IMG/VR virus record: IMGVR_UViG_3300023181_000027
Span: 35,473-99,472 of that record
Reading direction: 5' to 3' (one strand)
DNA: 64,000 nt
Source of the DNA: a virus
Lineage: Duplodnaviria; Heunggongvirae; Uroviricota; Caudoviricetes
The notes under the pieces were generated by a model. The model did no database searches. It was not told where the DNA came from and saw nothing but the letters and a program-made list of their open reading frames with translations. Shown here piece by piece: positions 13,640 to 55,006 of this stretch (positions are counted from its first letter, which is position 1; the number at the start of each line of letters is the position of its first letter). The position numbers and the translations under genes were made by a program.

Positions 13640-14866
13640 TTAAAACCTAAATAAAAAGTTTGTTTCTTTGTGTCTTCTCTCAGTAAACTCACCAGTAGTG
13701 AGAAAGTCGTCTAGTTGCTTTTCGTTAAGCGTAACTACCTTAAGGTCCTTACTACTCTTCTTAAACCACTCTTCTTCCACAGTACCTTTAATTACCAGAT
13801 GCCATACCTCAGCCACCTTATCTCCTTCTTTTCGGATTGAGCGACCAATTCTTTGACGTTTGGTAATTGATGAGCTATCGCCTGAGAGTATAATTATTGT
13901 GTCTACGCCTGTAACGTCAGCTCCCACATTTAAAGCTTGGCATGAATTAAGAGTTCCACTATCAGCATCGTTAAATGACTGTAACATCTTCTCTTTCTTC
14001 TTCTTACTCACTTTCCCATGATATATGTCTCCACAGCAGATTTGCTTAGCGTGATCAACTGATTTTGTAAATGTAATGATCTTTGCATTTTCACGTGCAT
14101 TGATGATCTTATCCGCTATCTCAATCTTCTTTAAGTGGTCATATATAAAGCTCTTTCGGGCTTTCATGGCTTTTATAAACCCCATGGCAGCTATTGTAAC
14201 CTCTCCTGGAGATTTATGTTTATGTTTGGCATAGTGATACCTGTAGCCATTAAGACCACTGACACACTTCATTGCCTCATTAAAATCAAACTCAAAGAAA
14301 GAGAAATAATGTAGGAACTTAGTGTTCCATTTGGCATATTCTGTCAGATCTACATCCAACATGACACGGTATTGCTTATAATCAGCGACCCACTCGTACT
14401 TGATAGCATCATCAAGTGTGATACGATCACATATAGGGGCGTACTGTTGTAACATTACCTCCTTACCATCTAGTCTATCGATAGTACCAGTAAGGCAAAG
14501 TATTAACTTGTATTTAACTTGATGAAAGATTGCTGAGAAGCTCTCAGCAACCATCATATGCACTTCATCGACAATCAACAAATCGCAACTTAACTCACGT
14601 TTGATAGCTGTGTTTACTACATACACGTCCACGTGTTGTATGAGTTCCCTCTCAATAAGCTCTTTTATCCATTGCTCTTTTAAATTGTCGGTTGGTACGA
14701 TGACTATCATCTTAGCATCCGCTTTCTTCGCTAACATTCGAGTGATGATTTTCATCGCCACTCTAGTCTTACCAAATCCAGTAGGATACAAACATGTAGC
14801 CCTTCCACCAGCTTTTTTCCAATGTTCTATCCCTTCATCTTGACGTGCATCACGTGTTAGAGTCAA
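13640..14866 (-). CDS. SF2 DEAD/DEAH-box helicase (UvsW/RAD25-like)
   Basis: Motif I PTGFGKTRVA, motif II LLIVDEVH, motif III LTGT and motif VI QRIGRSIR are all present. Confidence 0.75.
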   Translation of the reverse strand: MTLTRDARQDEGIEHWKKAGGRATCLYPTGFGKTRVAMKIITRMLAKKADAKMIVIVPTDNLKEQWIKELIERELIQHVDVYVVNTAIKRELSCDLLIVDEVHMMVAESFSAIFHQVKYKLILCLTGTIDRLDGKEVMLQQYAPICDRITLDDAIKYEWVADYKQYRVMLDVDLTEYAKWNTKFLHYFSFFEFDFNEAMKCVSGLNGYRYHYAKHKHKSPGEVTIAAMGFIKAMKARKSFIYDHLKKIEIADKIINARENAKIITFTKSVDHAKQICCGDIYHGKVSKKKKEKMLQSFNDADSGTLNSCQALNVGADVTGVDTIIILSGDSSSITKRQRIGRSIRKEGDKVAEVWHLVIKGTVEEEWFKKSSKDLKVVTLNEKQLDDFLTTGEFTERRHKETNFLFRF

Positions 14867-16869
14867 AATAGTGTTTCTTGTATTGGTTCCAACAAAGCTA
14901 TCACTTTATTACATGCGTGGATATAATAACGATAATCAATGTCGTATTGTTTTATTGGTCTCTCTTCATACTCATTAAACAGTTGTACGCCGAAACCTTT
15001 CAACACGTTAGACTTGATTAACACCTGTCCAACCTGTCCAGTCTTTCTATCGTACTTGTCAACTGTCTTACATTTATAAAGATAAGCACCTTTTCTACTC
15101 ACGTAGAATCGATTAATGTGTTGTTGTGGTTTAAGATACCACTCAACTTCATACTGCTTACCAATCTTTTGGAATGTAATGAAATCCCATATTGAACGTG
15201 CACCACGTATGGTGTCTTCAACTGGTATTCCCTTACCGAAGTAATTAATCAGTGCCTTTGCTACAATGAGACTGTCTAAACCTTTCCCTAATCTAGGATT
15301 AGATACAAACAAGCCTTTCTCTTTCACATAGGCGTTCTTCTTAATAGTATTGCTCTCTGGAGTTAGTAGAGGGTATGTGAAGTTAAACTCCACTGCTTTT
15401 TCCGGGGTATCGAAATCTATGGTATCTTTAACATCTGACCAACCTTTCTTAAACGCGACATAATCATTAACCGCCATAATGACAATCTTTTCATACTCCA
15501 CGTATTCTAACTCTAAACGAGTTTCAGTTTGCCATTTGTTGCAGATCTCATAGAACAATTCAACCTTTTCACGTGGGCATTTGACAGTTACACCATCTGT
15601 ATTAGACGATATCACCTCAATTCCAGCCAACTCACATCTTTCGATAAGCATTAACAACATAAGCTGTCCTGCCACACAAATACCAATGTTAGCTTCTGGA
15701 GCATAATAAGGTGAGAACATATTCCTCAAATTCCCTAAGATGCTATTCAACGCCAGTTTATAAGTTGTATCTTTCAATTTGTCTTTTGCGCGTTTGGCAA
15801 CAAGACGGTCTGTACGAAGATCTTCGAGTACTTGCAAGAAGGCCTCTTTAAATCCTGCAGGACCATACTTGTATAGAATTGCCAGTGATGGATACAGCGA
15901 TGCCACATCAGCATCAATAATGACGTACTTTTCATCCTCTGTATGCACTTTAGGAGTGTTTACAGAGTGTACGCCACCAACGCCAAATGAATGACGTAGA
16001 TTATTAATCCTTTGAATGATGCTGGTCTCACCCCAACCTTCAACCCGCTTTAATCCTTCAGAGTCGAGTACCATACCTTGATAAAAGTTTAATACTCTGT
16101 TTGCCTCTGGAGTTTCAAACTTAATGAACTCTGGAATGTAGTCTTTAACAACGATCTCATCTAAGTTAATCCTAGACGAATAAAGTTGCTTTTCATCGTA
16201 AATACCCAGGTTAGCACATATCCTTTTAGTAAATATGTCCACACCTATACCCACACCATCCTTCGATAGGCAGTCAATGCCAAACTCATTTTGAATCTGT
16301 ATTCTCAAAGAGATGTCATTTTTTAATAACGACATCAAATACGAGGTGGAATTCACATCGTTATGACAATAATAGATCAGATTATCATGTTGATCAATTG
16401 GAATGTATCTGTCCCAGTCAATCAACATCTCTTTGACATTATGATAGCACATTGTTATTTGCAGACTCTTTAATCCGACTCTTAGAGCTTTAGAAGCCAT
16501 CATAGTCATCAAGTCCATCTGCGCAAAACTGTTCTGCCATTTATACTTACTCCATGCTTGTGGTTCACCATTGATAATTGTACCTGCTAGTTTATAACAA
16601 GCATCAGCCACCAACAAGTAATTCCTGTCACGTTGAAACTCCCAAAACCTACTGATTAGCATATTCACAATAGGTGTATCAAAATGTATACAGTTGTATC
16701 CTACAAACACATACTGATCATCTTGAAAGAAGTCAACAAGCTCCTTTAACTGAAACTTCCTTGCACTTATCTCAAATGTACGTATTATCTCTTCACCCAC
16801 CACTTTAGCACAACATATGAAGGCATTTGGCGGGGTTTCAACGTCATATACACAGAGTTTCCGCTTCAT
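14863..16869 (-). CDS. family B DNA polymerase (compact, 668 aa) with 3'-5' exonuclease
   Basis: Exo I VYDVETP, Exo II YNCIHFDTPI and Exo III YYCHNDVNS are present. Pol motif A is DADVASLYPSL (DxxSLYPS), with a motif C-like SNTDGV. Confidence 0.7.
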   Translation of the reverse strand: MKRKLCVYDVETPPNAFICCAKVVGEEIIRTFEISARKFQLKELVDFFQDDQYVFVGYNCIHFDTPIVNMLISRFWEFQRDRNYLLVADACYKLAGTIINGEPQAWSKYKWQNSFAQMDLMTMMASKALRVGLKSLQITMCYHNVKEMLIDWDRYIPIDQHDNLIYYCHNDVNSTSYLMSLLKNDISLRIQIQNEFGIDCLSKDGVGIGVDIFTKRICANLGIYDEKQLYSSRINLDEIVVKDYIPEFIKFETPEANRVLNFYQGMVLDSEGLKRVEGWGETSIIQRINNLRHSFGVGGVHSVNTPKVHTEDEKYVIIDADVASLYPSLAILYKYGPAGFKEAFLQVLEDLRTDRLVAKRAKDKLKDTTYKLALNSILGNLRNMFSPYYAPEANIGICVAGQLMLLMLIERCELAGIEVISSNTDGVTVKCPREKVELFYEICNKWQTETRLELEYVEYEKIVIMAVNDYVAFKKGWSDVKDTIDFDTPEKAVEFNFTYPLLTPESNTIKKNAYVKEKGLFVSNPRLGKGLDSLIVAKALINYFGKGIPVEDTIRGARSIWDFITFQKIGKQYEVEWYLKPQQHINRFYVSRKGAYLYKCKTVDKYDRKTGQVGQVLIKSNVLKGFGVQLFNEYEERPIKQYDIDYRYYIHACNKVIALLEPIQETLF

Positions 16870-17729: not shown

Positions 17730-18059
17730 TTATATTTTAAATATGTTTTCTAATTTCTCTTGTACATCTCTCACACACTGTGAGCAAAACTTCAGTTTGC
17801 TCACTTCTATCTTTCTACTAACCCAAGAAATAGATTCAATATTACTAATCTTCGCGTACGACTTCAACGTCAGCTTTTTATGCACTACCTCAACGAGATT
17901 GTCCACTCCTACAGTGGCTGTGCTGGTGATTGGTACGATCAGCCAGTTATATGGTATACCAATAGCATTCGTGAATACATGCACACAAATGTATGGTCTT
18001 TTCTTGGCAGGGTCCGTGTTGTCTTGTTTAAATAACAAGCTTCCGACTTCTGCTTTCAT
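17730..18059 (-). CDS. hypothetical protein (109 aa)
   Basis: Track ORF. Confidence 0.4.
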   Translation of the reverse strand: MKAEVGSLLFKQDNTDPAKKRPYICVHVFTNAIGIPYNWLIVPITSTATVGVDNLVEVVHKKLTLKSYAKISNIESISWVSRKIEVSKLKFCSQCVRDVQEKLENIFKI

Positions 18060-18193
18060 TAATGTTGTTCCTATTACAAATAGGTCAACGGTATTGGTAT
18101 AGTGTTCTGTTGCCGTTTATGTATGGCCTGTATAACACATTTTTATCATGATTTGGTTATTGCTGTTAATTTTTAAACTCCTTATGGGAGTGG

Positions 18194-18529
18194 TTATGAA
18201 ACTTTTAGTTGGTTTGTGTTGGTAACGAAACCGTTCTTCAACACATGTGTAATAGGGACAAAATTTAGAAAGTACGTAGCCGTATATTGGTAGAATTTAT
18301 GCTGTCCTGAAGATGCTTCGAAGTAGGTGTCTACACCCCCCTTTACATCCTTAAACTCAACATATCCATCTTGCATAACTCTAGGTTCATCTCCACGCCA
18401 ATTTGGGCATCTACTACACATGACGAAATCGCCAGTGTTTAGATTCTCAAATACGTAGGTGGTATAACCCTCATCTGCTCCCTGGCCTACCAGTCTTGCT
18501 TTAATACATTTTTCTAATTTTTGCTCCAT
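18194..18529 (-). CDS. hypothetical protein (111 aa)
   Basis: Track ORF. Confidence 0.45.
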   Translation of the reverse strand: MEQKLEKCIKARLVGQGADEGYTTYVFENLNTGDFVMCSRCPNWRGDEPRVMQDGYVEFKDVKGGVDTYFEASSGQHKFYQYTATYFLNFVPITHVLKNGFVTNTNQLKVS

Positions 18530-18543
18530 TGGTTTTTAATAAT

Positions 18544-18816
18544 TTACTTCGCTGATCTACGTAATGTGCCAGCAGAAGTGTAAGATGCCGGCACTCTAGT
18601 AGGTATATCGGCAGTATTGGTAAAACTATGATTGGATATGCCAAGTGATACACTATCGTTATTCCAAGTCAAGTCAGTAGTACCACTACTACCATACAAA
18701 GCACCTTGTGGGCTCCTACTTTTTGTTACAGGTTGTTTCCAGCCCTCTAGTCCTGAGAAATGGTCAATTACAGAATTCTTATCCGTTAACCCAACTAGAG
18801 GGCTACTTAAAAAGGG
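18544..18816 (-). CDS. -1 frame extension ORF, about 90 codons with no start codon of its own; predicted transframe product with 18807..19004
   Basis: Hand translation of the -1 frame from the slippery site gives PFLSSPLVGLTDKNSVIDHFSGLEGWKQPVTKSRSPQGALYGSSGTTDLTWNNDSVSLGISNHSFTNTADIPTRVPASYTSAGTLRRSAK*. There is no in-frame ATG. Confidence 0.45.
   Translation of the reverse strand, partial: PFLSSPLVGLTDKNSVIDHFSGLEGWKQPVTKSRSPQGALYGSSGTTDLTWNNDSVSLGISNHSFTNTADIPTRVPASYTSAGTLRRSAK
18741..18816 (-). other. programmed -1 ribosomal frameshift signal: slippery CCCUUUU, a 5-nt spacer, then an 11-bp stem (AGCCCUCUAGU/ACUAGAGGGCU) with a 42-nt loop
   Basis: In the minus sense, heptamer C_CCU_UUU spans 18816-18810 in X_XXY_YYZ register relative to the upstream ORF. 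Spacer UAAGU follows. Then a perfect 11-bp inverted repeat spans 18804-18794 and 18751-18741. Confidence 0.5.
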
Positions 18817-19004
18817 CGGATAGAGATTACAACGTCATCAATAACATCATCCCATTTTGCATCAATCTTTCTGATGATATCGCGTTCTACGCTCTTCTGA
18901 TCTTTAGCTAACACTCTGTCTTGCAGAATGATTTCAGCCTTCGCGCCTTTCTCAGCGTCTTTTTCATTTGGTACATAAAATACCACATAATCAAATACTT
19001 TCAT
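18807..19004 (-). CDS. small protein (65 aa), 0-frame product of a predicted frameshift gene
   Basis: Track ORF ending ...ISIRPF*. A CCCUUUU slippery heptamer sits at its last two sense codons. Confidence 0.5.
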   Translation of the reverse strand: MKVFDYVVFYVPNEKDAEKGAKAEIILQDRVLAKDQKSVERDIIRKIDAKWDDVIDDVVISIRPF

Positions 19005-19179
19005 TTACTTTTTCTTTAGTTTGGTGTAAACCCAGTAGCCGATAGCTGCAGGGATTAGAAATAGTGCGACAGTTAAAAGGAAACTGACAACCTTGACCAA
19101 TACGATGATCACTTTAAAAATTACGAATAGAAGGATAGCGGCAATCACCGCTATCCCTATGATTTTAGTCCAGTGCATA

Positions 19180-32670: not shown

Positions 32671-32688
32671 GAGTTTAAATTGATTTAG

Positions 32689-32763
32689 TGGGCCAGGGGA
32701 GATTCGAACTCGCCTACCTTCGGCTTATGAGGCCGCCGCTCTAACCGAGTGAGCTACCGGCCC
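32689..32763 (-). tRNA. tRNA-Met/Ile2 (anticodon CAU), uninterrupted
   Basis: Hand fold gives acceptor GGGCCGG/CUGGCCC, D-arm GCUCACUCGGUUAGAGC, anticodon loop CUCAUAA and T-loop UUCGAAU. Confidence 0.65.
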
Positions 32764-35209: not shown

Positions 35210-36669
35210 TATATTACTTTTAATAGTTTACCAATTAACAATTTGGATGGTTTCTTAAGGTCTTTAAGCTCCTGTATCCACTCTTCATACACTTTATGTA
35301 TAGCCTGGCCATACGTTATATCAGTATATTGTTTTGGTATAGGTTCTACAGCAACAGTTGCTTTACCTGGGTAGTCTGTCAAACCTTTAGCGCTTGACAA
35401 AAACGTATCTCTCAGTTGTAGCCAGTCTATACCTTCCTGAGACCTAAAATCATCTATTGTGATTGTTTTGTACGAACCTATACCAGGGACAGTATTCTCG
35501 AACTTACCTTTCATACGTTCGGCTAACATTTCATCAGCCAGTTTATTGAAATCTACACCTGTAGTTGATTCCAAGTCTTTAACTAAACCTGCGAGCATTG
35601 GTCTATCTTTAAATCTCTCATCTATTCGGGCTTGATATAAGCCCGATCTAGCCGCTAGAAACTCCGATTTACTGAGTTTCTGCGCGTCAGAGATATCCTT
35701 GATTAGATCACCATAAACTTTACCTGGAGTTCCCACCTTAACACTGCCATTACTAAAGATTGTAGTTCTTTCACTTGCTGGCGTACCATTACTACCATCT
35801 GTTGTAAATATAGTGATCATTGGCTCACCCTTGCCATTTGATGTCTCAACGTCGAATAGAACTTCCTTTTCACTAGGAAGTTCATTGGGTACGAAATGAA
35901 AAGTGACGCTCTGTTTTAAAATACTAACAACGGTGTTCCTAACTAATGTGCGGTCACCACCATAAATAACCCAACCAATATTCACTCCATTATAACTAAC
36001 TCTACCTGTACAGTAGTTACTATTGGCACCTCTTGCACCACTCCATCTAATATCACCATTGGTCTGTAATCGATCAATATGTCGATCCATTAAACCAATC
36101 TCAAACCAATCGCCAGTAGTGCCAATTTCAGGGTACTTCTCAATTAGTAAATCAAGGTAATACTCACGCGGATCAAAGAATACCATTGACCAATACAATT
36201 GACCAGCCTCTTTTAACTTAATCTTTTTCAGATCGTAAGTGTTGTCCTTATGATACACTTGAGAAGAACTGTTCCAATTAGGATTTGCTCGTTCAAGTCG
36301 ACCACATATTGAATTGTTATGCCGAATAGTACCTTCTATAGTAGGACCCTGAACAATCCACTTTAAGGCACCGCTACGTTCAAGTGCTGTAATTTCATCT
36401 TTGAAATCTATACTGGGTTTATACTGTGCACCCACCATACTTATACCGCGCTCTTGACACACGCGAGCAATCATACTGCGTTTTTCCCGATCTTCCTTCA
36501 CCAGTAAGAAATAATACCAGATATTAAATAAGTGCTGAGGATCCATATCTTCAAGATATTGGACTTTACCATCGTAGCTCTTCCAAGCTGTTTTCTTTTG
36601 TGGCATCTCTAATATTTTAAAATAAATGTAATTGTCTGCTTTCATACTCTCCGAACCAAGTGTAGACAA
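35209..36669 (-). CDS. hypothetical protein (486 aa). The true start may be an internal ATG at 36645 or 36606
   Basis: Long track ORF with a Gly/Thr/Ser-rich middle region. No motif recognised. Confidence 0.5.
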   Translation of the reverse strand: MSTLGSESMKADNYIYFKILEMPQKKTAWKSYDGKVQYLEDMDPQHLFNIWYYFLLVKEDREKRSMIARVCQERGISMVGAQYKPSIDFKDEITALERSGALKWIVQGPTIEGTIRHNNSICGRLERANPNWNSSSQVYHKDNTYDLKKIKLKEAGQLYWSMVFFDPREYYLDLLIEKYPEIGTTGDWFEIGLMDRHIDRLQTNGDIRWSGARGANSNYCTGRVSYNGVNIGWVIYGGDRTLVRNTVVSILKQSVTFHFVPNELPSEKEVLFDVETSNGKGEPMITIFTTDGSNGTPASERTTIFSNGSVKVGTPGKVYGDLIKDISDAQKLSKSEFLAARSGLYQARIDERFKDRPMLAGLVKDLESTTGVDFNKLADEMLAERMKGKFENTVPGIGSYKTITIDDFRSQEGIDWLQLRDTFLSSAKGLTDYPGKATVAVEPIPKQYTDITYGQAIHKVYEEWIQELKDLKKPSKLLIGKLLKVI

Positions 36670-37020
36670 TGGCTAAAGCAAAGACAAAGACTACACTACC
36701 GACCAAGACAAAGCCTAAGGCAAAGTCATTTTTACACGCTTAGTTCTCCTTCAAAGGGAGATACGTGAGTGGTGTAGCGCATAACTGGCTTCTCTACGGG
36801 CTCTGCCGTATAGAAATATCCACAGTCTGGAAGCTACTAGGTTTTTGTTTGTTTGGTAGTGTACGGAGTTTTTTCTTATCAGATTAAGATTCTGTTGCTA
36901 TATAAAGCTATAATTCGTCCTTACGAAGTTGTATAATATAACCGCACGCTCACACTCTTTCAAGTGTGAAACGGTTGGTCATATATAAGATTGGACGAAG
37001 AGTACAGATAAAGATAGAGT

Positions 37021-37040
37021 TACCCACTCATCGGTGGGTA
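37021..37040 (-). terminator. hairpin (7-bp stem UACCCAC/GUGGGUA) downstream of gene 37069..38055, with no U-tract
   Basis: Perfect inverted repeat about 30 nt past the stop codon, inside a 400-nt ORF-free spacer. Confidence 0.25.
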
Positions 37041-37068
37041 AGCATCTATCAAGCAGACATTACATTCA

Positions 37069-38055: not shown

Positions 38056-38101
38056 GTTTTTGTTTTTTAAATAGTTTAAGAATGCATCAATGTTTTAATT
38101 G

Positions 38102-38229
38102 TGGCGGAAGCAGGGTACGATCCTGCAATCCCTTCGTCAGCGCTAACTCCGGGATGCTCAGTTTAGATTCTGAGTGTGTACACCTCCTAGCTTATAACTA
38201 GGCGCCTTTAGAGCTACCACCTTTCCGCC
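38102..38229 (-). ncRNA. tRNA-like RNA, about 128 nt (acceptor stem and T-arm recognisable, extra internal hairpins)
   Basis: 5' GGCGGAA pairs with 3' UUCCGCC-A. T-arm is GCAGG-AUCGUAC-CCUGC. The internal hairpins are CCUAG-UUAUAAG-CUAGG and CUCAG...CUGAG. No ORF in this region. Confidence 0.4.
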
Positions 38230-38353
38230 ATGTTTGTGCTATTTATAAGTTTAAACTCAATAAGAATACGAGTAAAAAGGCAAATAATGTAAGTCCGCCG
38301 ATGATCATACCGGCCAATGCGATAGCTTTCATAATTGTTTAAGATTTGGTTTG

Positions 38354-38465
38354 CGGACGAGAGGAGATTCGAACTCCTGACACGGGCATTAAAAGTGCAA
38401 ATTAATGACTTCTAAGTGATAGGATCACTATTTGTTTCCTGCTCTACCAGCTGAGCTACTCGTCC
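38354..38465 (-). tRNA. tRNA gene with an internal insert of about 40 nt (112 nt total) carrying a conserved AGUGAU-CCU-AUCACU triloop hairpin
   Basis: Acceptor GGACGAG/CUCGUCC, a canonical D-arm UAGCUCAGCUGGUAGAGC and T-arm AGGAG-UUCGAAU-CUCCU, but 57 nt lie between the D- and T-arms. The motif is at about 38411-38430. Confidence 0.55.
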
Positions 38466-38471
38466 GTTTTG

Positions 38472-39150: not shown

Positions 39151-39167
39151 ATTTTACGTTTTAAATG

Positions 39168-39278
39168 TGGTAGGGGCGTGCGGAGTTGAACCGCTATTTC
39201 AATTTATCAGATTTGTTTTTAACCAAGTAATTGATTCTAAGTGAGATGCTCACTACTAATTTATATTTAACGCCCCTA
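39168..39278 (-). ncRNA. tRNA-like RNA with encoded CCA, no canonical D-arm, and an internal AGUGAG-CAU-CUCACU hairpin
   Basis: Acceptor AGGGGCG/CGCCCCU-A-CCA. T-arm GCGG-UUCAACU-CCGC. Motif at about 39236-39258. Confidence 0.4.
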
Positions 39279-39279
39279 G

Positions 39280-39393
39280 CGAGGAAGAGTGGACTCGAAC
39301 CACTGACCTTCAGGTTTACCTTGCTTTATGATTGCTAAGTGACATAGTCACTAAAATTGCACCTGACGCTCTGAACCACTGAGCTACTTCCCC
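39280..39393 (-). tRNA. tRNA gene with a 40-nt insert inside the anticodon loop (114 nt), carrying an AGUGAC-UAU-GUCACU hairpin
   Basis: Acceptor GGGGAAG/CUUCCUC, D-arm UAGCUCAGUGGUUCAGAGC, anticodon stem UCAGG/CCUGA enclosing 47 nt, T-arm AGUGG-UUCGAGU-CCACU. Confidence 0.6.
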
Positions 39394-39396
39394 TTC

Positions 39397-39518
39397 TATT
39401 GTTGCGGCGAAGGGAATCGAACCCATATCCACTGCAGGGTAGACGAATCCTTTACCAAGGTGGAATCGAACCACAATCATCCCATCGAGCAGGACTCTAG
39501 CCTTGTTGAGCTACATCC
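39397..39518 (-). ncRNA. tRNA-like region, one or two tRNA-like genes (two T-arm-like GGUUCGAUUCC elements), not resolved by hand
   Basis: D-arm-like UAGCUCAACAAGGCUAGAGU, and T-arms GUGG-UUCGAUU-CCAC and GGG-UUCGAUU-CCC. No ORFs in this region. Confidence 0.35.
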
Positions 39519-39525
39519 GCATTAT

Positions 39526-49395: not shown

Positions 49396-49488
49396 TTTGT
49401 TACGGGGTTTTAATTAACAGTTTAAAAAAGAAGAGTGACCGGCATCCACCAGGTCACTCTACGGGCTAATAGTTGTTACATTATGAGG

Positions 49489-49573
49489 CGCGAGTGAATG
49501 GATTCGAACCACCGACCTGTGTCCATCTGCTAAGCATGGGGAACCACCGCTCTACCGACTGAGCTACACTCGC
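49489..49573 (-). tRNA. tRNA (85 nt, probably a long-variable-arm type), with a CUUAGCA loop
   Basis: Acceptor GCGAGUG/CACUCGC, D-arm UAGCUCAGUCGGUAGAGC, T-loop UUCGAAU. The anticodon assignment is uncertain (possibly UAG). Confidence 0.5.
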
Positions 49574-52099: not shown

Positions 52100-52121
52100 A
52101 ATATAGATCTTTTAAAAACAG

Positions 52122-52376
52122 TTACAAAGAGATACTTTTCTTTCCCCATTGAATGTTGTTCCATAATCTTTCATATACGAGATAAACTATGGTAAGAATG
52201 AGGTGAATTAAGATGGCACTGCCTATGCCAGTAAAGCAGGCAGTAATTGATGTGGTGATCAACTTGAAGAAGATGGTTTTAACTACACTACGTTTTACAG
52301 TGTCTAATTGTTGTGTGTTGTTCATTGTTTCGCGGGGTTTAAATGTTTTTACTTCGCTCTTGCGTAGAGAATCCAA
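52122..52376 (-). CDS. small membrane protein (84 aa)
   Basis: Two hydrophobic helices. Confidence 0.4.
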   Translation of the reverse strand: MDSLRKSEVKTFKPRETMNNTQQLDTVKRSVVKTIFFKLITTSITACFTGIGSAILIHLILTIVYLVYERLWNNIQWGKKSISL

Positions 52377-52680
52377 TTCAAGTCATCAGCATCTTCAATT
52401 GTCGCTATATAAGTTGACTCGGTATTCTTATCATACACTGTATTACCAATCTTTGTTTCGGTGTAGTATATAATATAATCCACACCATCAATAGTTACTA
52501 TTTCCATTTTTGTAAGTTTACAGATTAAAGAGACGAGAGGCTAATAGATTGTTATTCTTGTCTGTCTAGCTTATTAGCTGTTCATGTGCCGAAACATGGA
52601 GATTCACCATGCACTCTCGTACGCACCTTAGTGCTCTCTTTTAATGAAGCTATGTGTAACTACACCACTTAGCTTATTTG

Positions 52681-52750
52681 TGGACCCGAAGGGTTTCGAA
52701 CCCTTGTCCGGTTGTGCTGCAAAGCAGCTTTCTACACGCTTATCCTTTTT
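52681..52750 (-). ncRNA. tRNA-like fragment or minihelix (T-arm AAGGG-UUCGAAA-CCCUU plus a GCUGC-UUU-GCAGC triloop hairpin)
   Basis: Canonical T-arm and an acceptor-like 3' end, but no matching 5' acceptor strand nearby. It abuts the 1.2-kb ORF-free structured region. Confidence 0.3.
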
Positions 52751-53605
52751 TATGTCACTGTTAGGATCAGTCTTACCCTATTTCACGTTCGGATTTGTTA
52801 CATCTTTAATGTGAGGTAACTCCCACGTTTTAAGTTTTAATTTAGGCAAGCTAAGCTGTTTCTCACTTCGCTTCATCACAGACTTTACTGTTCGTGGGTT
52901 CATTTAATCTGACTAGTTCATAGATTTTCACCTACGACCGCACCTCCCGCCCTTAACATGCTATTTTCCGTTCCCCGCATAGCTGCGCGTTGGTTAAACC
53001 AGCTCGTAAGCCAGGTTTGCTTCAATGTGTGCGAGCACATCATCGATACCAGTTGTAGAAAGCTCTACGTTGTTTGTGTTGCCACTTATTGTTTTTACAC
53101 CTTACTTTGTACGGGTTGGGTGCCATGCCGTGCGTGCTTACTACTCAACTATCACCCCGTCAAATCCATACGGGCCCATGTTGTTTGTTTAATTTAAAGC
53201 CACCACTTCACCAGTTCCGTAAGATGAAGTGGTAGCCTAAGGTTGGAATGAGTTTAATAAACCCACCTGTCCCACGCATCCTGGTTTAGTCTCCAGAGCC
53301 TTGGAATGTTGTTGGTTTAGAACACTAACATAGGTCCATTCTAGTACCTAGATTTATTGCTAACAGAGCGTACACACTGCGTGTGCTTCAGTGTATTTCT
53401 ACACTTCATTCGAAAGCACGGATTTCTGCCCGCACTTGCCACAGATTAATAGCAAAAGCATTCATAAGGATTGTGCACATCCTCCCAATATTGTTGAATG
53501 ACCAGTATACGAGTTTAAGGAGATACGTAATTAGCTCCGTTTCAATGTGTTTAAGGGTTAACTGGTTCCATTATAGCCCACACTTTTTAGTTGTTCATGT
53601 TTTGA

Positions 53606-54887: not shown

Positions 54888-54975
54888 TTGTGACGGGTAT
54901 GGGAATCGAACCCAAGTCAGTGAGTCTCTGCATCCCTGCATTAACCCCTAGTAATGGCACCCTTTCGTGCAACTA
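54888..54975 (-). ncRNA. tRNA-like element (T-arm UUGGG-UUCGAUU-CCCAU), with the 5' half not resolved
   Basis: A T-arm and a 3' acceptor-like strand are recognisable. This 160-nt stretch has no ORF. Confidence 0.3.
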
Positions 54976-55006
54976 TCCGCATTATACTGAACCCGCCATG
55001 TGTTGT

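What the first reader, a model, noticed from the sequence alone, without database searches (positions are those of the whole stretch)
18544..19004. Textbook -1 programmed ribosomal frameshift site linking a 65-aa ORF to a 90-codon start-less extension
The last two sense codons of ORF 18807..19004 (CCU UUU, preceded by C) form the slippery heptamer C_CCU_UUU in the correct X_XXY_YYZ register. Exactly 5 nt downstream begins a perfect 11-bp stem (AGCCCUCUAGU ... ACUAGAGGGCU) with a 42-nt loop that could pseudoknot. The -1 frame stays open for about 90 codons to a stop at 18544 and has no ATG of its own. Its Gly/Ser/Thr-rich sequence looks protein-like. This is the architecture of the lambda G/GT frameshift, but it sits in a non-structural region next to NAMPT, so its function is unknown.
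Basis: seen in the sequence. Interest (0 to 1): 0.7.

Follow-up and report, generated by a model that had tools for sequence, protein, structure and literature searches.

The report
Conserved -1 frameshift in phage gene
A small gene of an uncultured crAss-like phage ends in a ribosome "slip" signal that most likely lets some ribosomes shift back one base and add an 88-residue tail; the same signal is kept in more than 30 distantly related phages, so it is probably real and appears undescribed, but it is a standard type of mechanism.

Summary

- **The gene.** ORF 18807..19004(-) belongs to a real family of at least 160 small phage proteins. Most are 63-80 aa and nearly all end in ...[VI]RPF-stop. 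The family has no Pfam, PHROG or NCBIfam match.
- **The downstream frame.** I examined 35 loci, with 20-71% protein identity and GC of 0.30-0.61. In 33 of them the -1 frame after the Phe codon stays open for 44-188 codons. The +1 frame has a median of about 9 codons. The -1 frame ends just before the next gene wherever I checked.
- **The slip site.** It is held at synonymous positions. Pro is CCT in 32 of 32 cases (background about 31%). Arg is CGC in 28 of 35 (background about 14%). This gives C_CCU_UUY, or at least U_UUY, followed directly by a stop codon in 30 of 35.
- **The helix.** A helix starts 3-7 nt downstream (median 9 bp, against 6 bp at control positions). It is kept by compensatory changes and by entirely different sequences.
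- **The extension.** It is a variable Ser/Thr/Gly/Asn-rich linker plus a conserved C-terminal motif, [YF]x[AS][AGSL]x1-2[LIVM].
- **A natural fusion.** One relative (L187) carries the two parts fused in frame.

The function is unknown, no pseudoknot is supported, and nothing has been tested experimentally.

The parts
18807..19004 (-). 0-frame gene (ORF65): 65 aa, MKVF...ISIRPF, stop TAA at 18809..18807. It gives the short product.
   Evidence: It belongs to a family of at least 160 proteins, of which 112 of 119 retrieved end in F and 107 in RPF. AlphaFold2 with 110 sequences gives pLDDT 94 and a beta-beta-alpha-alpha-beta fold. Coding score is +0.33 per codon.
18810..18816 (-). Slippery heptamer C_CCU_UUU (0-frame codons CCU UUU, preceded by the C of CGC).
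   Evidence: Among the 35 loci, Pro is CCT in 32/32, Arg is CGC in 28/35 and Phe is TTT or TTC in 35/35. Background usage is CCT about 31% and CGC about 14%. H_HH.U_UU.Y heptamers are listed among the most efficient in E. coli (PMC4066793).
18807..18809 (-). 0-frame stop codon UAA directly after the heptamer. It is part of the conserved cassette U_UUY_UAR.
   Evidence: A stop directly follows the Phe codon in 30/35 loci (TAG 17, TAA 11, TGA 2).
18793..18805 (-). 5' arm of the stimulatory helix (core 11 nt AGCCCUCUAGU at 18804..18794; 13 pairs with flanking G-U/A-U). It starts 4-5 nt after the heptamer.
   Evidence: (I9).
18740..18752 (-). 3' arm of the stimulatory helix (core ACUAGAGGGCU at 18751..18741).
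   Evidence: There is a compensatory G-C to A-U change against L188. L012 has CUUUAG/CUAAAG and L186 has CUGUUG/CAACAG.
18762..18791 (-). Inner hairpin inside the 40-nt loop of the main helix (predicted only).
   Evidence: It is not conserved as such in relatives, whose loops range from 6 to 86 nt.
18544..18810 (-). -1-frame extension: 88 sense codons (LSSPLVGLTDK...RVPASYTSAGTLRRSAK) plus stop TAA at 18546..18544. Together with ORF65 it gives a predicted 153-aa trans-frame product.
   Evidence: The -1 frame is open for 44 or more codons in 33/35 loci. The alignment to the L188 extension has z = 9.5 in this frame, against 2.9 and 4.4 in the other two frames. A C-terminal motif is present in 23/32 extensions, against about 1 expected.
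18194..18529 (-). Next gene downstream (111 aa), starting 14 nt after the extension's stop. It marks the end of the recoded unit and is not part of it.
   Evidence: The same neighbour follows the extension in L008, L013, L014 and L188.

Best explanation
Proposed mechanism: the mRNA of the 65-aa gene carries a -1 programmed ribosomal frameshift cassette at its very end.

Ribosomes pause with tRNA-Pro on CCU and tRNA-Phe on UUU, or with tRNA-Phe in the P site and the UAA stop in the A site. The pause is caused by a stable 11-13-bp helix that begins 4-5 nt downstream. Some ribosomes slip back one base (CCU UUU to CCC UUU), read UUA (Leu) instead of UAA, and continue for 88 codons.

**The products.** Two proteins result. 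One is the 65-aa folded domain alone. The other is a 153-aa form in which that domain carries a Ser/Thr/Gly/Asn-rich, probably flexible linker. The linker ends in a short conserved motif, YTSAGTL here and [YF]x[AS][AGSL]x1-2[LIVM] in the family.

**Shown (all computational):**
- the sequence anatomy;
- conservation of the slip site at synonymous positions;
- conservation of a helix at the correct spacing, through compensatory and wholesale sequence change;
- conservation of a start-less open -1 frame and of its C-terminal motif;
- one natural in-frame fusion.

**Inferred:**
- that slipping actually happens, and at what efficiency;
- which of the two slip modes dominates;
- that the tail works as a tethered docking peptide.

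The function is unknown. The gene lies among nucleotide-metabolism, replication and recombination genes in most loci, not among virion genes.
For: 1. **Anatomy in the window.**

2. **Open -1 frame in relatives.** The relatives comprise:
   - 12 loci from public assemblies. Ten were chosen by protein and two (L119, L178) by a DNA pattern that includes the slip site.
   - 21 IMG/VR loci chosen by a protein profile.
   - The in-frame fusion L187.

   With the window this makes 35 loci. The -1 frame is open for 44-188 codons in 33 of them. Over the 34 loci with complete sequence, the +1 frame has a median of 9.5 codons. Where I checked, the -1 ORF ends a few nt before the next gene. The summed log10 p against shuffles is below -57.

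3. **No conserved start.** There is no ATG in the -1 ORF in 12 of 33 loci, and the first start-like codon is usually 10 or more codons in.

4. **Synonymous-site constraint.** CCT is used in 32/32 cases and CGC in 28/35, against backgrounds of 0.31 and 0.14.

5. **The motifs are good slip sites.** C_CC.U_UU.U and C_CC.U_UU.C belong to the class listed as most efficient in E. coli. U_UU.C and U_UU.U are the next best tetramers after A_AA.G (PMC4066793). The tetramers cover the relatives that keep only U_UUU (L009, L186, L188).

6. **Helix at spacer 3-7 nt.**
   - Median length is 9 bp, against 6 bp at 990 control positions.
   - Mann-Whitney p = 1.4e-11.
   - Fisher combined p = 1.3e-13.
   - Compensatory pairs are seen.

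7. **Protein-level conservation in the -1 frame.** See, and the C-terminal motif.

8. **Natural in-frame fusion.** P0052/L187 (136 aa) ends in ...TSFTASNLTL.

9. **The sequence is reproducible.** It is identical in two assemblies.
Against: - No experiment or proteomic evidence exists. The efficiency is unknown.
- The extension's coding score in the window is only borderline, and the extension evolves fast. Pairwise BLASTP similarity between extensions is mostly weak.
- The Arg-Pro-Phe C-terminus is conserved as protein, so part of the heptamer would be present anyway.
- The first residues of the extension (LSxPLV) overlap the 5' arm of the helix. Their conservation therefore cannot be assigned to the protein rather than the RNA.
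- A few relatives have a usable start codon at the junction. L183 has TGATG, L184 has GTGA and L206 has UUG. Coupled re-initiation is possible there.
- The C-terminal motif was defined after looking at the data.
Confidence: 0.85

Rival explanations
1. The downstream ORF is a separate gene. It is translated by termination-reinitiation (coupling) or from a non-canonical start codon, and no fusion protein is made.
For: Gene callers did call internal-start pieces of it in some relatives: 81 aa from GTG in L009, 128 aa in L014, 61 aa from ATG in L183 (TGATG) and 81 aa from GTG in L184 (GTGA).
Against: - Most loci have no ATG/GTG/TTG within 10 codons of the junction, and 12 of 33 have no ATG at all. 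The window has none before codon 37.
- Coupling would not explain the fixed CGC CCT TTY codon choice.
- It would not explain the fixed -1 phase in 33/35 loci.
- It would not explain the in-frame fusion L187.
Confidence: 0.06
2. The split is a frameshift mutation or a homopolymer sequencing error (T5 instead of T6) in a single 153-aa gene, so the ORF is a pseudogene or an artefact.
For: Adding one T to the T5 run would fuse the frames. One relative is fused in frame (L187). Another (L204) looks as if it has one T too few.
Against: - The window sequence is identical in two independent assemblies.
- The same -1 layout is found in 33 loci from different samples and GC contents, including loci with TTC, where there is no T run (L014, L178, L194, L195, L202, L210).
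- 112 of 119 family proteins end exactly at F.
Confidence: 0.02
3. RNA polymerase slippage on the T run (transcriptional realignment), not ribosomal slippage, puts a fraction of mRNAs in the fused frame.
For: The window has a run of five U, and the outcome (one extra U) would give the same protein.
Against: - From general knowledge, productive transcriptional slippage usually needs runs of about 7-9 A or T. Here the run is 5.
- In six relatives the run is only 3 (CCU UUC) with the -1 ORF still conserved.
- A helix 3-7 nt downstream is the signature of ribosomal PRF, not of polymerase slippage.
Confidence: 0.03
4. The 277-nt interval is a structured non-coding RNA or regulatory leader of the next gene, and its open frame is incidental.
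For: The whole interval folds better than shuffles (z = -3.6). There is no Rfam match, but that does not exclude a new RNA.
Against: - The open -1 frame is conserved across highly diverged sequences, with lengths of 44-188 codons.
- Similarity is best in that frame.
- The C-terminal peptide motif is conserved.
- Rfam gives nothing better than E = 5.
- No tRNA, no terminator or promoter pattern inside the interval and no repeats pointing to a template region were found.
Confidence: 0.02

Closest known systems
Phage lambda G/GT tail assembly chaperone frameshift (and its counterparts in other long-tailed phages)
   Same: A -1 slip on an X_XXY_YYZ heptamer at the extreme 3' end of a short upstream ORF. 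It yields a short product and a C-terminally extended product from a start-less overlapping ORF, and it is conserved across phages whose sequences have diverged (own knowledge).
   Different: - No homology: there are no Pfam or PHROG hits.
- The gene lies among NAMPT, replication and recombination genes, not between the major tail and tape-measure genes.
- The upstream protein is half the size.
- A conserved downstream helix is present here, whereas lambda G/GT is generally described as needing none (own knowledge).
Phage T7 gene 10A/10B (capsid) -1 frameshift
   Same: The slip site lies close to the stop codon of the upstream frame. The heptamer is of the N_NNU_UUY type. The result is a minor, C-terminally extended isoform (own knowledge).
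   Different: This is not a capsid protein. Relative to the domain, the extension is longer (88 aa on a 65-aa domain). The stimulator here is a nearby helix.
IS3/IS911-family orfAB and E. coli dnaX -1 frameshifts
   Same: They are bacterial -1 PRF with a heptamer plus a downstream stem-loop, three-way junction or pseudoknot at about 5-7 nt. Sharma et al. 2014 used this system to rank motifs (PMC4066793).
   Different: The heptamer differs (A_AAA_AAG there). No upstream Shine-Dalgarno-like stimulator was looked for or seen here. dnaX frameshifting truncates the protein, whereas this one extends it.
West Nile / Japanese encephalitis virus NS1' frameshift
   Same: From my own knowledge, the slippery heptamer C_CCU_UUU is identical and a structured stimulator lies a few nt downstream. 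A full-text search places that string in the WNV frameshifting literature, but I did not read the passage.
   Different: That case is a eukaryotic RNA virus with a pseudoknot stimulator. No stop codon abuts the heptamer, and there is no evolutionary relationship.

Membership tests
-1 programmed ribosomal frameshift cassette (mechanistic class) | Slippery X_XXY_YYZ heptamer (or Z_ZZN tetramer) in the 0-frame register | tested here: met
   C_CCU_UUU lies at 18816..18810. C_CCU_UUY is present in 28/35 loci and U_UUY in 35/35. The motif class is rated efficient in E. coli.
-1 programmed ribosomal frameshift cassette (mechanistic class) | Stimulatory RNA structure starting about 4-9 nt downstream | tested here: met
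   In the window, an 11-13-bp helix follows a 4-5-nt spacer. Across 33 loci the median is 9 bp against 6 bp at controls, p = 1.4e-11. Compensatory changes are seen. This is prediction only.
-1 programmed ribosomal frameshift cassette (mechanistic class) | Overlapping -1 ORF that lacks its own initiation signal and is conserved in relatives | tested here: met
   The -1 frame is open for 88 codons in the window and for 44 or more in 33/35 loci. No conserved start codon is present.
-1 programmed ribosomal frameshift cassette (mechanistic class) | Trans-frame protein actually made | not testable with these tools
   This needs reporters, ribosome profiling or mass spectrometry. The only indirect support is the natural in-frame fusion L187.
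Lambda G/GT-type tail assembly chaperones | Sequence or profile homology to tail assembly chaperone families | tested here: not met
Lambda G/GT-type tail assembly chaperones | Position between the major tail protein and tape-measure genes | tested here: not met
   The neighbours are NAMPT, a 57-aa membrane protein, and 111-aa, 109-aa and 283-aa proteins of unknown function, followed by DNA polymerase. In other loci they are PDDEXK_1, AAA_24, helicase, RecA-like and ribonucleotide-reductase-like genes.
Rfam-described frameshift elements or other RNA families | Match to a curated covariance model | tested here: not met
   The best matches have E of 5 or more and lie far below the gathering scores.

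The most novel reading that the evidence does not exclude
The cassette is a distinct, stop-codon-coupled kind of -1 frameshift. In 30 of 35 loci the slip tetramer U_UUY abuts the stop, so release-factor action and P-site slippage compete on the same ribosome. The short-to-long isoform ratio could then report the host's termination capacity or translational state.

The long isoform would be a small folded domain tethered by a disordered linker to a conserved docking peptide. That layout resembles SSB with its C-terminal tip. It could recruit the domain to a host or phage replication or recombination machine in many uncultured phages, including crAss-like phages and a 735-kb megaphage.
Probability: 0.2. 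Interest if true: 0.75.

Novelty: new member of a known kind. Interest (0 to 1): 0.62.

Why it matters
- **A missed protein.** Gene callers truncate or miss the long isoform in every member of this family, so an apparently unannotated protein exists in many uncultured phages. These include crAss-like gut phages and a 735-kb megaphage.
- **A rare kind of case.** Few well-supported phage frameshifts lie outside the virion-assembly genes. This one comes with a large natural set of slip-site and helix variants that could be used to study the rules of bacterial -1 PRF. It would also extend that study to Bacteroidota hosts, where translation signals differ from those of E. coli.
- **Annotation.** The "277-nt intergenic gap" in these genomes is coding sequence.
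- **A lead on function.** The domain-linker-motif layout of the long form gives a concrete handle, such as pull-downs with the C-terminal peptide, on a gene of unknown function.

Tried and rejected
**Searches that found nothing**
- Rfam at permissive E-values over 18000..19500 gave nothing meaningful.
- The tRNA scan found no tRNA in the interval.
- The promoter and terminator scan found no site inside 18530..18806.
- A search for repeats or a DGR-like template found only the stem.
- DNA similarity to GenBank phages found only NAMPT fragments.
- tblastn of ORF65 and of the extension alone against GenBank phages found nothing significant.
- Among GenBank phage records, only the 735-kb record LR756501/LR756503 carries the family.
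- A word-indexed protein search with the single fusion sequence gave 0 hits. The full HMMER scan and a profile search were needed.
- IMG/VR gave nothing with the single ORF65 protein or with the exact stem pattern.
- Degenerate DNA patterns returned 48 loci from IMG/VR and 120 from metagenome contigs. Almost all were chance matches. Filtering with a family HMM left only L119 and L178.
- The genome-contig scan for prophage copies found none.

- Alignments A1 and A3 were too divergent for the search for related loci.
- afdb50 was unavailable.
- The single-sequence model of the 153-aa product has low confidence (pLDDT 45) and is uninformative about the tail.

**Ideas rejected**
- Pseudoknot: only a 5-bp candidate (UUUCU/GGAAA) exists. 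It has no room for a connecting loop and is not conserved in L188, so I rejected it as unsupported.
Full report
**1. What is in the window**

Read on the minus strand, ORF 18807..19004 encodes MKVFDYVVFYVPNEKDAEKGAKAEIILQDRVLAKDQKSVERDIIRKIDAKWDDVIDDVVISIRPF and stops at TAA.

- Its last codons are CGC CCT TTT, so C_CCT_TTT (18816..18810) sits in X_XXY_YYZ register.
- Five nucleotides later (TAAGT) a perfect 11-bp inverted repeat begins: 18804..18794 pairs with 18751..18741, with 42 nt between the arms.
- RNAfold extends it to 13 pairs around a 40-nt loop that holds an inner hairpin.
- The -1 frame is open from 18834 to the TAA at 18546..18544. That is 88 codons beyond the Phe codon.
- The -1 frame has no ATG, and its first start-like codon (TTG) is at codon 37.
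- The +1 frame closes after one codon.
- The next gene starts 14 nt after the extension's stop.

**2. Context**

All genes in this part of the window are on the minus strand and tightly packed. The DNA polymerase at 14863..16869 is 35-38% identical to those of crAss-like phages. The upstream 623-aa gene is a NAMPT, judged from the Pfam marks on the identical gene in L213 and on the homologous genes in L014 and L188. The window is a distant crAss-like phage.

The 511-nt stretch around the site is identical in two independent assemblies: Logan SRR7968062 and ENA ERZ27228488, the latter a 134,778-bp contig.

**3. Evidence within the genome alone is suggestive but not decisive**

- A helix that long at that position occurs in 0.4% of shuffles.
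- On the minus strand, only two other stop-free runs of 90 or more codons lie wholly inside a gene in a non-gene frame.
- A 3-periodic Markov model trained on the window's long genes scores the extension at +0.057 per codon. This lies at the 6th percentile of real-gene windows and above nearly all spurious open runs.
- The whole interval folds better than shuffles (z = -3.6), which could also have suggested a non-coding RNA.
- Rfam, tRNA, promoter/terminator and repeat scans found nothing relevant.

**4. ORF65 is a real, widespread and undescribed family**

- A full HMMER scan with the hypothetical 153-aa product found 30 proteins. All but one were hits to residues 1-65 only, and almost all ended where ORF65 ends. 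The exception, P0011, is a 1439-aa repeat protein that matched the low-complexity part.
- A profile search raised this to 160 proteins.
- Of 119 retrieved, 112 end in F and 107 end in RPF. The median length is 70 aa.
- AlphaFold2 with 110 sequences gives a confident small beta-beta-alpha-alpha-beta domain (pLDDT 94).
- There is no match in Pfam, PHROGs, NCBIfam or PDB sequences.
- Among GenBank phage records, only the 735-kb metagenomic record LR756501/LR756503 carries a member.

**5. The decisive evidence comes from relatives**

I obtained DNA for 34 relatives.
- Twelve came from public assemblies. Ten were chosen by protein identity look-up and two (L119, L178) by a DNA pattern that includes the slip site.
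- Twenty-one came from IMG/VR through a protein profile.
- The last is L187.

Their ORF65 homologues are 20-71% identical to the window's, and locus GC ranges from 0.30 to 0.61.

Results:
- The -1 frame after the Phe codon is open for 44-188 codons in 33 of the 35 loci, counting the window. Over the 34 loci with complete sequence, the medians are 69.5 codons for the -1 frame and 9.5 for the +1 frame.
- The summed log10 p against shuffles is below -57, even with each locus floored at 1/301.
- The -1 ORF stops a few nucleotides before the next gene wherever I checked.
- There is no ATG in the -1 ORF in 12 of 33 loci, and the first start-like codon usually lies 10 or more codons in.

**6. The slip site is conserved at the nucleotide level beyond what the protein requires**

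- Pro is CCT in 32 of 32 loci that have Pro. Arg is CGC in 28 of 35. Phe is TTT (29) or TTC (6).
- In neighbouring genes of the same loci, CCT makes up about 31% of Pro codons and CGC about 14% of Arg codons.
- The result is C_CCU_UUY in 28 loci, N_CCU_UUU in four and U_UUU alone in three (L009, L186, L188). The tetramer U_UUY is present in all 35.
- A stop codon follows directly in 30 loci (TAG 17, TAA 11, TGA 2).
- Sharma et al. 2014 list H_HH.U_UU.Y heptamers among the most efficient in E. coli. They rank U_UU.C and U_UU.U as the best tetramers after A_AA.G when a stimulator is present (PMC4066793).

**7. The helix is conserved as structure**

- In 33 loci, the longest helix whose 5' arm starts 3-9 nt after the Phe codon has a median of 9 bp, against 6 bp at 990 control positions in the same loci.
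- Helices of 9 bp or more occur at 52% of sites against 9% of controls. Mann-Whitney p = 1.4e-11 and Fisher combined p = 1.3e-13.
- Within the crAss-like group the 5' arm is homologous and shows compensatory changes:

| Locus | 5' arm / 3' arm |
|---|---|
| window | CUCUAG / CUAGAG |
| L012, L014 | CUUUAG / CUAAAG |
| L009 | CCCCUU / AAGGGG |
| L186 | CUGUUG / CAACAG |

- At the position before CCC, the window has G-C, L188 has A-U and L014 has C-G.
- In the IMG/VR loci the arms are unrelated sequences, for example GGGUCACUG/CAGUGACCC and CCCCAAGCACG/UGUGCUUGGGG. Loops range from 6 to 86 nt.
- No pseudoknot is supported. The only candidate pairing in the window is 5 bp, is sterically awkward and is absent from L188.

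**8. The extension behaves as protein**

- Against the closest relative (L188, where ORF65 is 71% identical), the extensions align at 31 identities over 70 aligned codons. The z-score is 9.5 in the -1 frame, against 2.9 and 4.4 in the other two frames.
- Across the family the middle is highly variable and rich in Ser, Thr, Gly, Asn and Ala.
- A motif, [YF]x[AS][AGSL]x1-2[LIVM], sits 7-22 residues from the C-terminus in 23 of 32 extensions. About 1 is expected and the maximum in 1000 shuffles was 5. I defined the motif after seeing the data, so the enrichment is overstated to some degree.
- In the 735-kb phage the extension is 188 codons long and holds collagen-like G-x-x repeats.
- One relative, P0052/L187, has the two parts fused in frame. 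The sequence runs CGC CCT TTT GAC... with 64 further codons ending ...TSFTASNLTL, and the -1 frame is closed. I read this as evidence that the fused protein is a functional product.
- One locus (L204) has one T fewer, which puts the extension-like ORF (NSSPLMW...) in the +1 frame. This is most simply an indel or homopolymer error in that contig.

**9. Mechanism and rivals**

The best explanation is a classical -1 PRF. Ribosomes stalled by the helix slip back on C_CCU_UUU, either as a tandem slip or as a P-site slip of tRNA-Phe on U_UUU with the stop codon in the A site. Both routes give ...IRPF-LSSPLVG.... The products are a 65-aa protein and a 153-aa protein.

The rivals fit the comparative data poorly. 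They are coupled re-initiation, a pseudogene or sequencing error, transcriptional slippage, and a non-coding RNA (see Rival explanations). I put the PRF reading at about 0.85. The remaining doubt is mainly that nothing has been measured.

**10. Function**

The function is unknown. Neighbours are mostly nucleotide-metabolism, replication and recombination genes:
- NAMPT and DNA polymerase in the window;
- PDDEXK_1 and AAA_24 in L187;
- helicase, RecA-like, exonuclease and ribonucleotide-reductase-like ORFs elsewhere.

The assignments are my reading of ORF translations and were not searched.

The layout of a folded domain, a variable low-complexity linker and a conserved C-terminal peptide suggests a tethered docking motif. 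This is inference only. The single-sequence model of the long form is uninformative.

**11. Comparison, novelty and scores**

- **What it works like.** It works like lambda G/GT, T7 10A/10B, and IS3 and dnaX -1 PRF. It uses the same heptamer as the flavivirus NS1' site (my own knowledge; only locates the string in that literature).
- **Family membership.** It is not a member of any of those gene families. The homology and context tests were not met.
- **Prior description.** Searches of the held literature turned up no description of this case. The family is absent from the curated libraries and from the GenBank phage collection searched, apart from one metagenomic record.
- **Verdict.** It is a new member of a known kind: a well-supported, apparently undescribed, widely conserved phage frameshift outside the virion genes. 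Interest is 0.62.

Noticed in passing
window 49487-49573 (-) and 54892-54980 (-); also 32688-32763 (-): ARAGORN reports two tRNA-like genes with undetermined anticodons ('cc' and 'aggg', 87-89 nt), plus a normal tRNA-Met. Odd tRNAs in a crAss-like phage could be intron-containing or suppressor tRNAs.
   Followed up: no
L211 (LR756501.1 259365-262565, reverse complement), positions about 1701-2265: The 735-kb 'uncultured phage' carries an ORF65 homologue with CGC CCT TTT TAA. Its -1 extension is 188 codons long and contains collagen-like G-x-x repeats (GTSGTSGTSGSSGTSGTDG...).
   Followed up: partly
L187 2501-2911 (Logan SRR13425445 contig; protein P0052): This is a natural in-frame fusion of the ORF65 domain with an extension-like tail (136 aa). 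CGC CCT TTT is still present and the -1 frame is closed. It sits just after PDDEXK_1 and AAA_24 (Sak4-like) genes.
   Followed up: yes
L204 around 1701-1720 (IMGVR_UViG_3300034062_004313): The sequence is CCT TTT AAA TAG, with one T fewer than the family pattern. The extension-like ORF (NSSPLMW...) is open for 64 codons in the +1 frame, not the -1 frame. This is either a homopolymer indel or error, or a different shift.
   Followed up: partly
window 17730-18059 (-): The homologues of this 109-aa ORF in L009 and L013 carry a weak PemK_toxin Pfam mark. The window protein itself gave only a sub-threshold zinc-finger match and a faint mazE-like PHROG hit.
   Followed up: no
window 19005-19178 (-): A 57-aa ORF, mostly hydrophobic and likely a membrane protein, lies between NAMPT and ORF65. 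It abuts ORF65's start (TAAATG). Similar 58-61-aa genes occupy the same place in L014 and L188.
   Followed up: no
window 36646-37068, 38056-38471, 39151-39525, 52100-53605: These are other unusually long gaps between minus-strand genes in an otherwise tightly packed genome. I did not examine them for further recoding sites, small genes or RNAs.
   Followed up: no
L183 3186-3192 and L184 2383-2392: In two relatives the junction also offers a coupled restart: TGATG in L183, and GTGA two codons after the heptamer in L184. Frameshifting and re-initiation might coexist there.
   Followed up: partly
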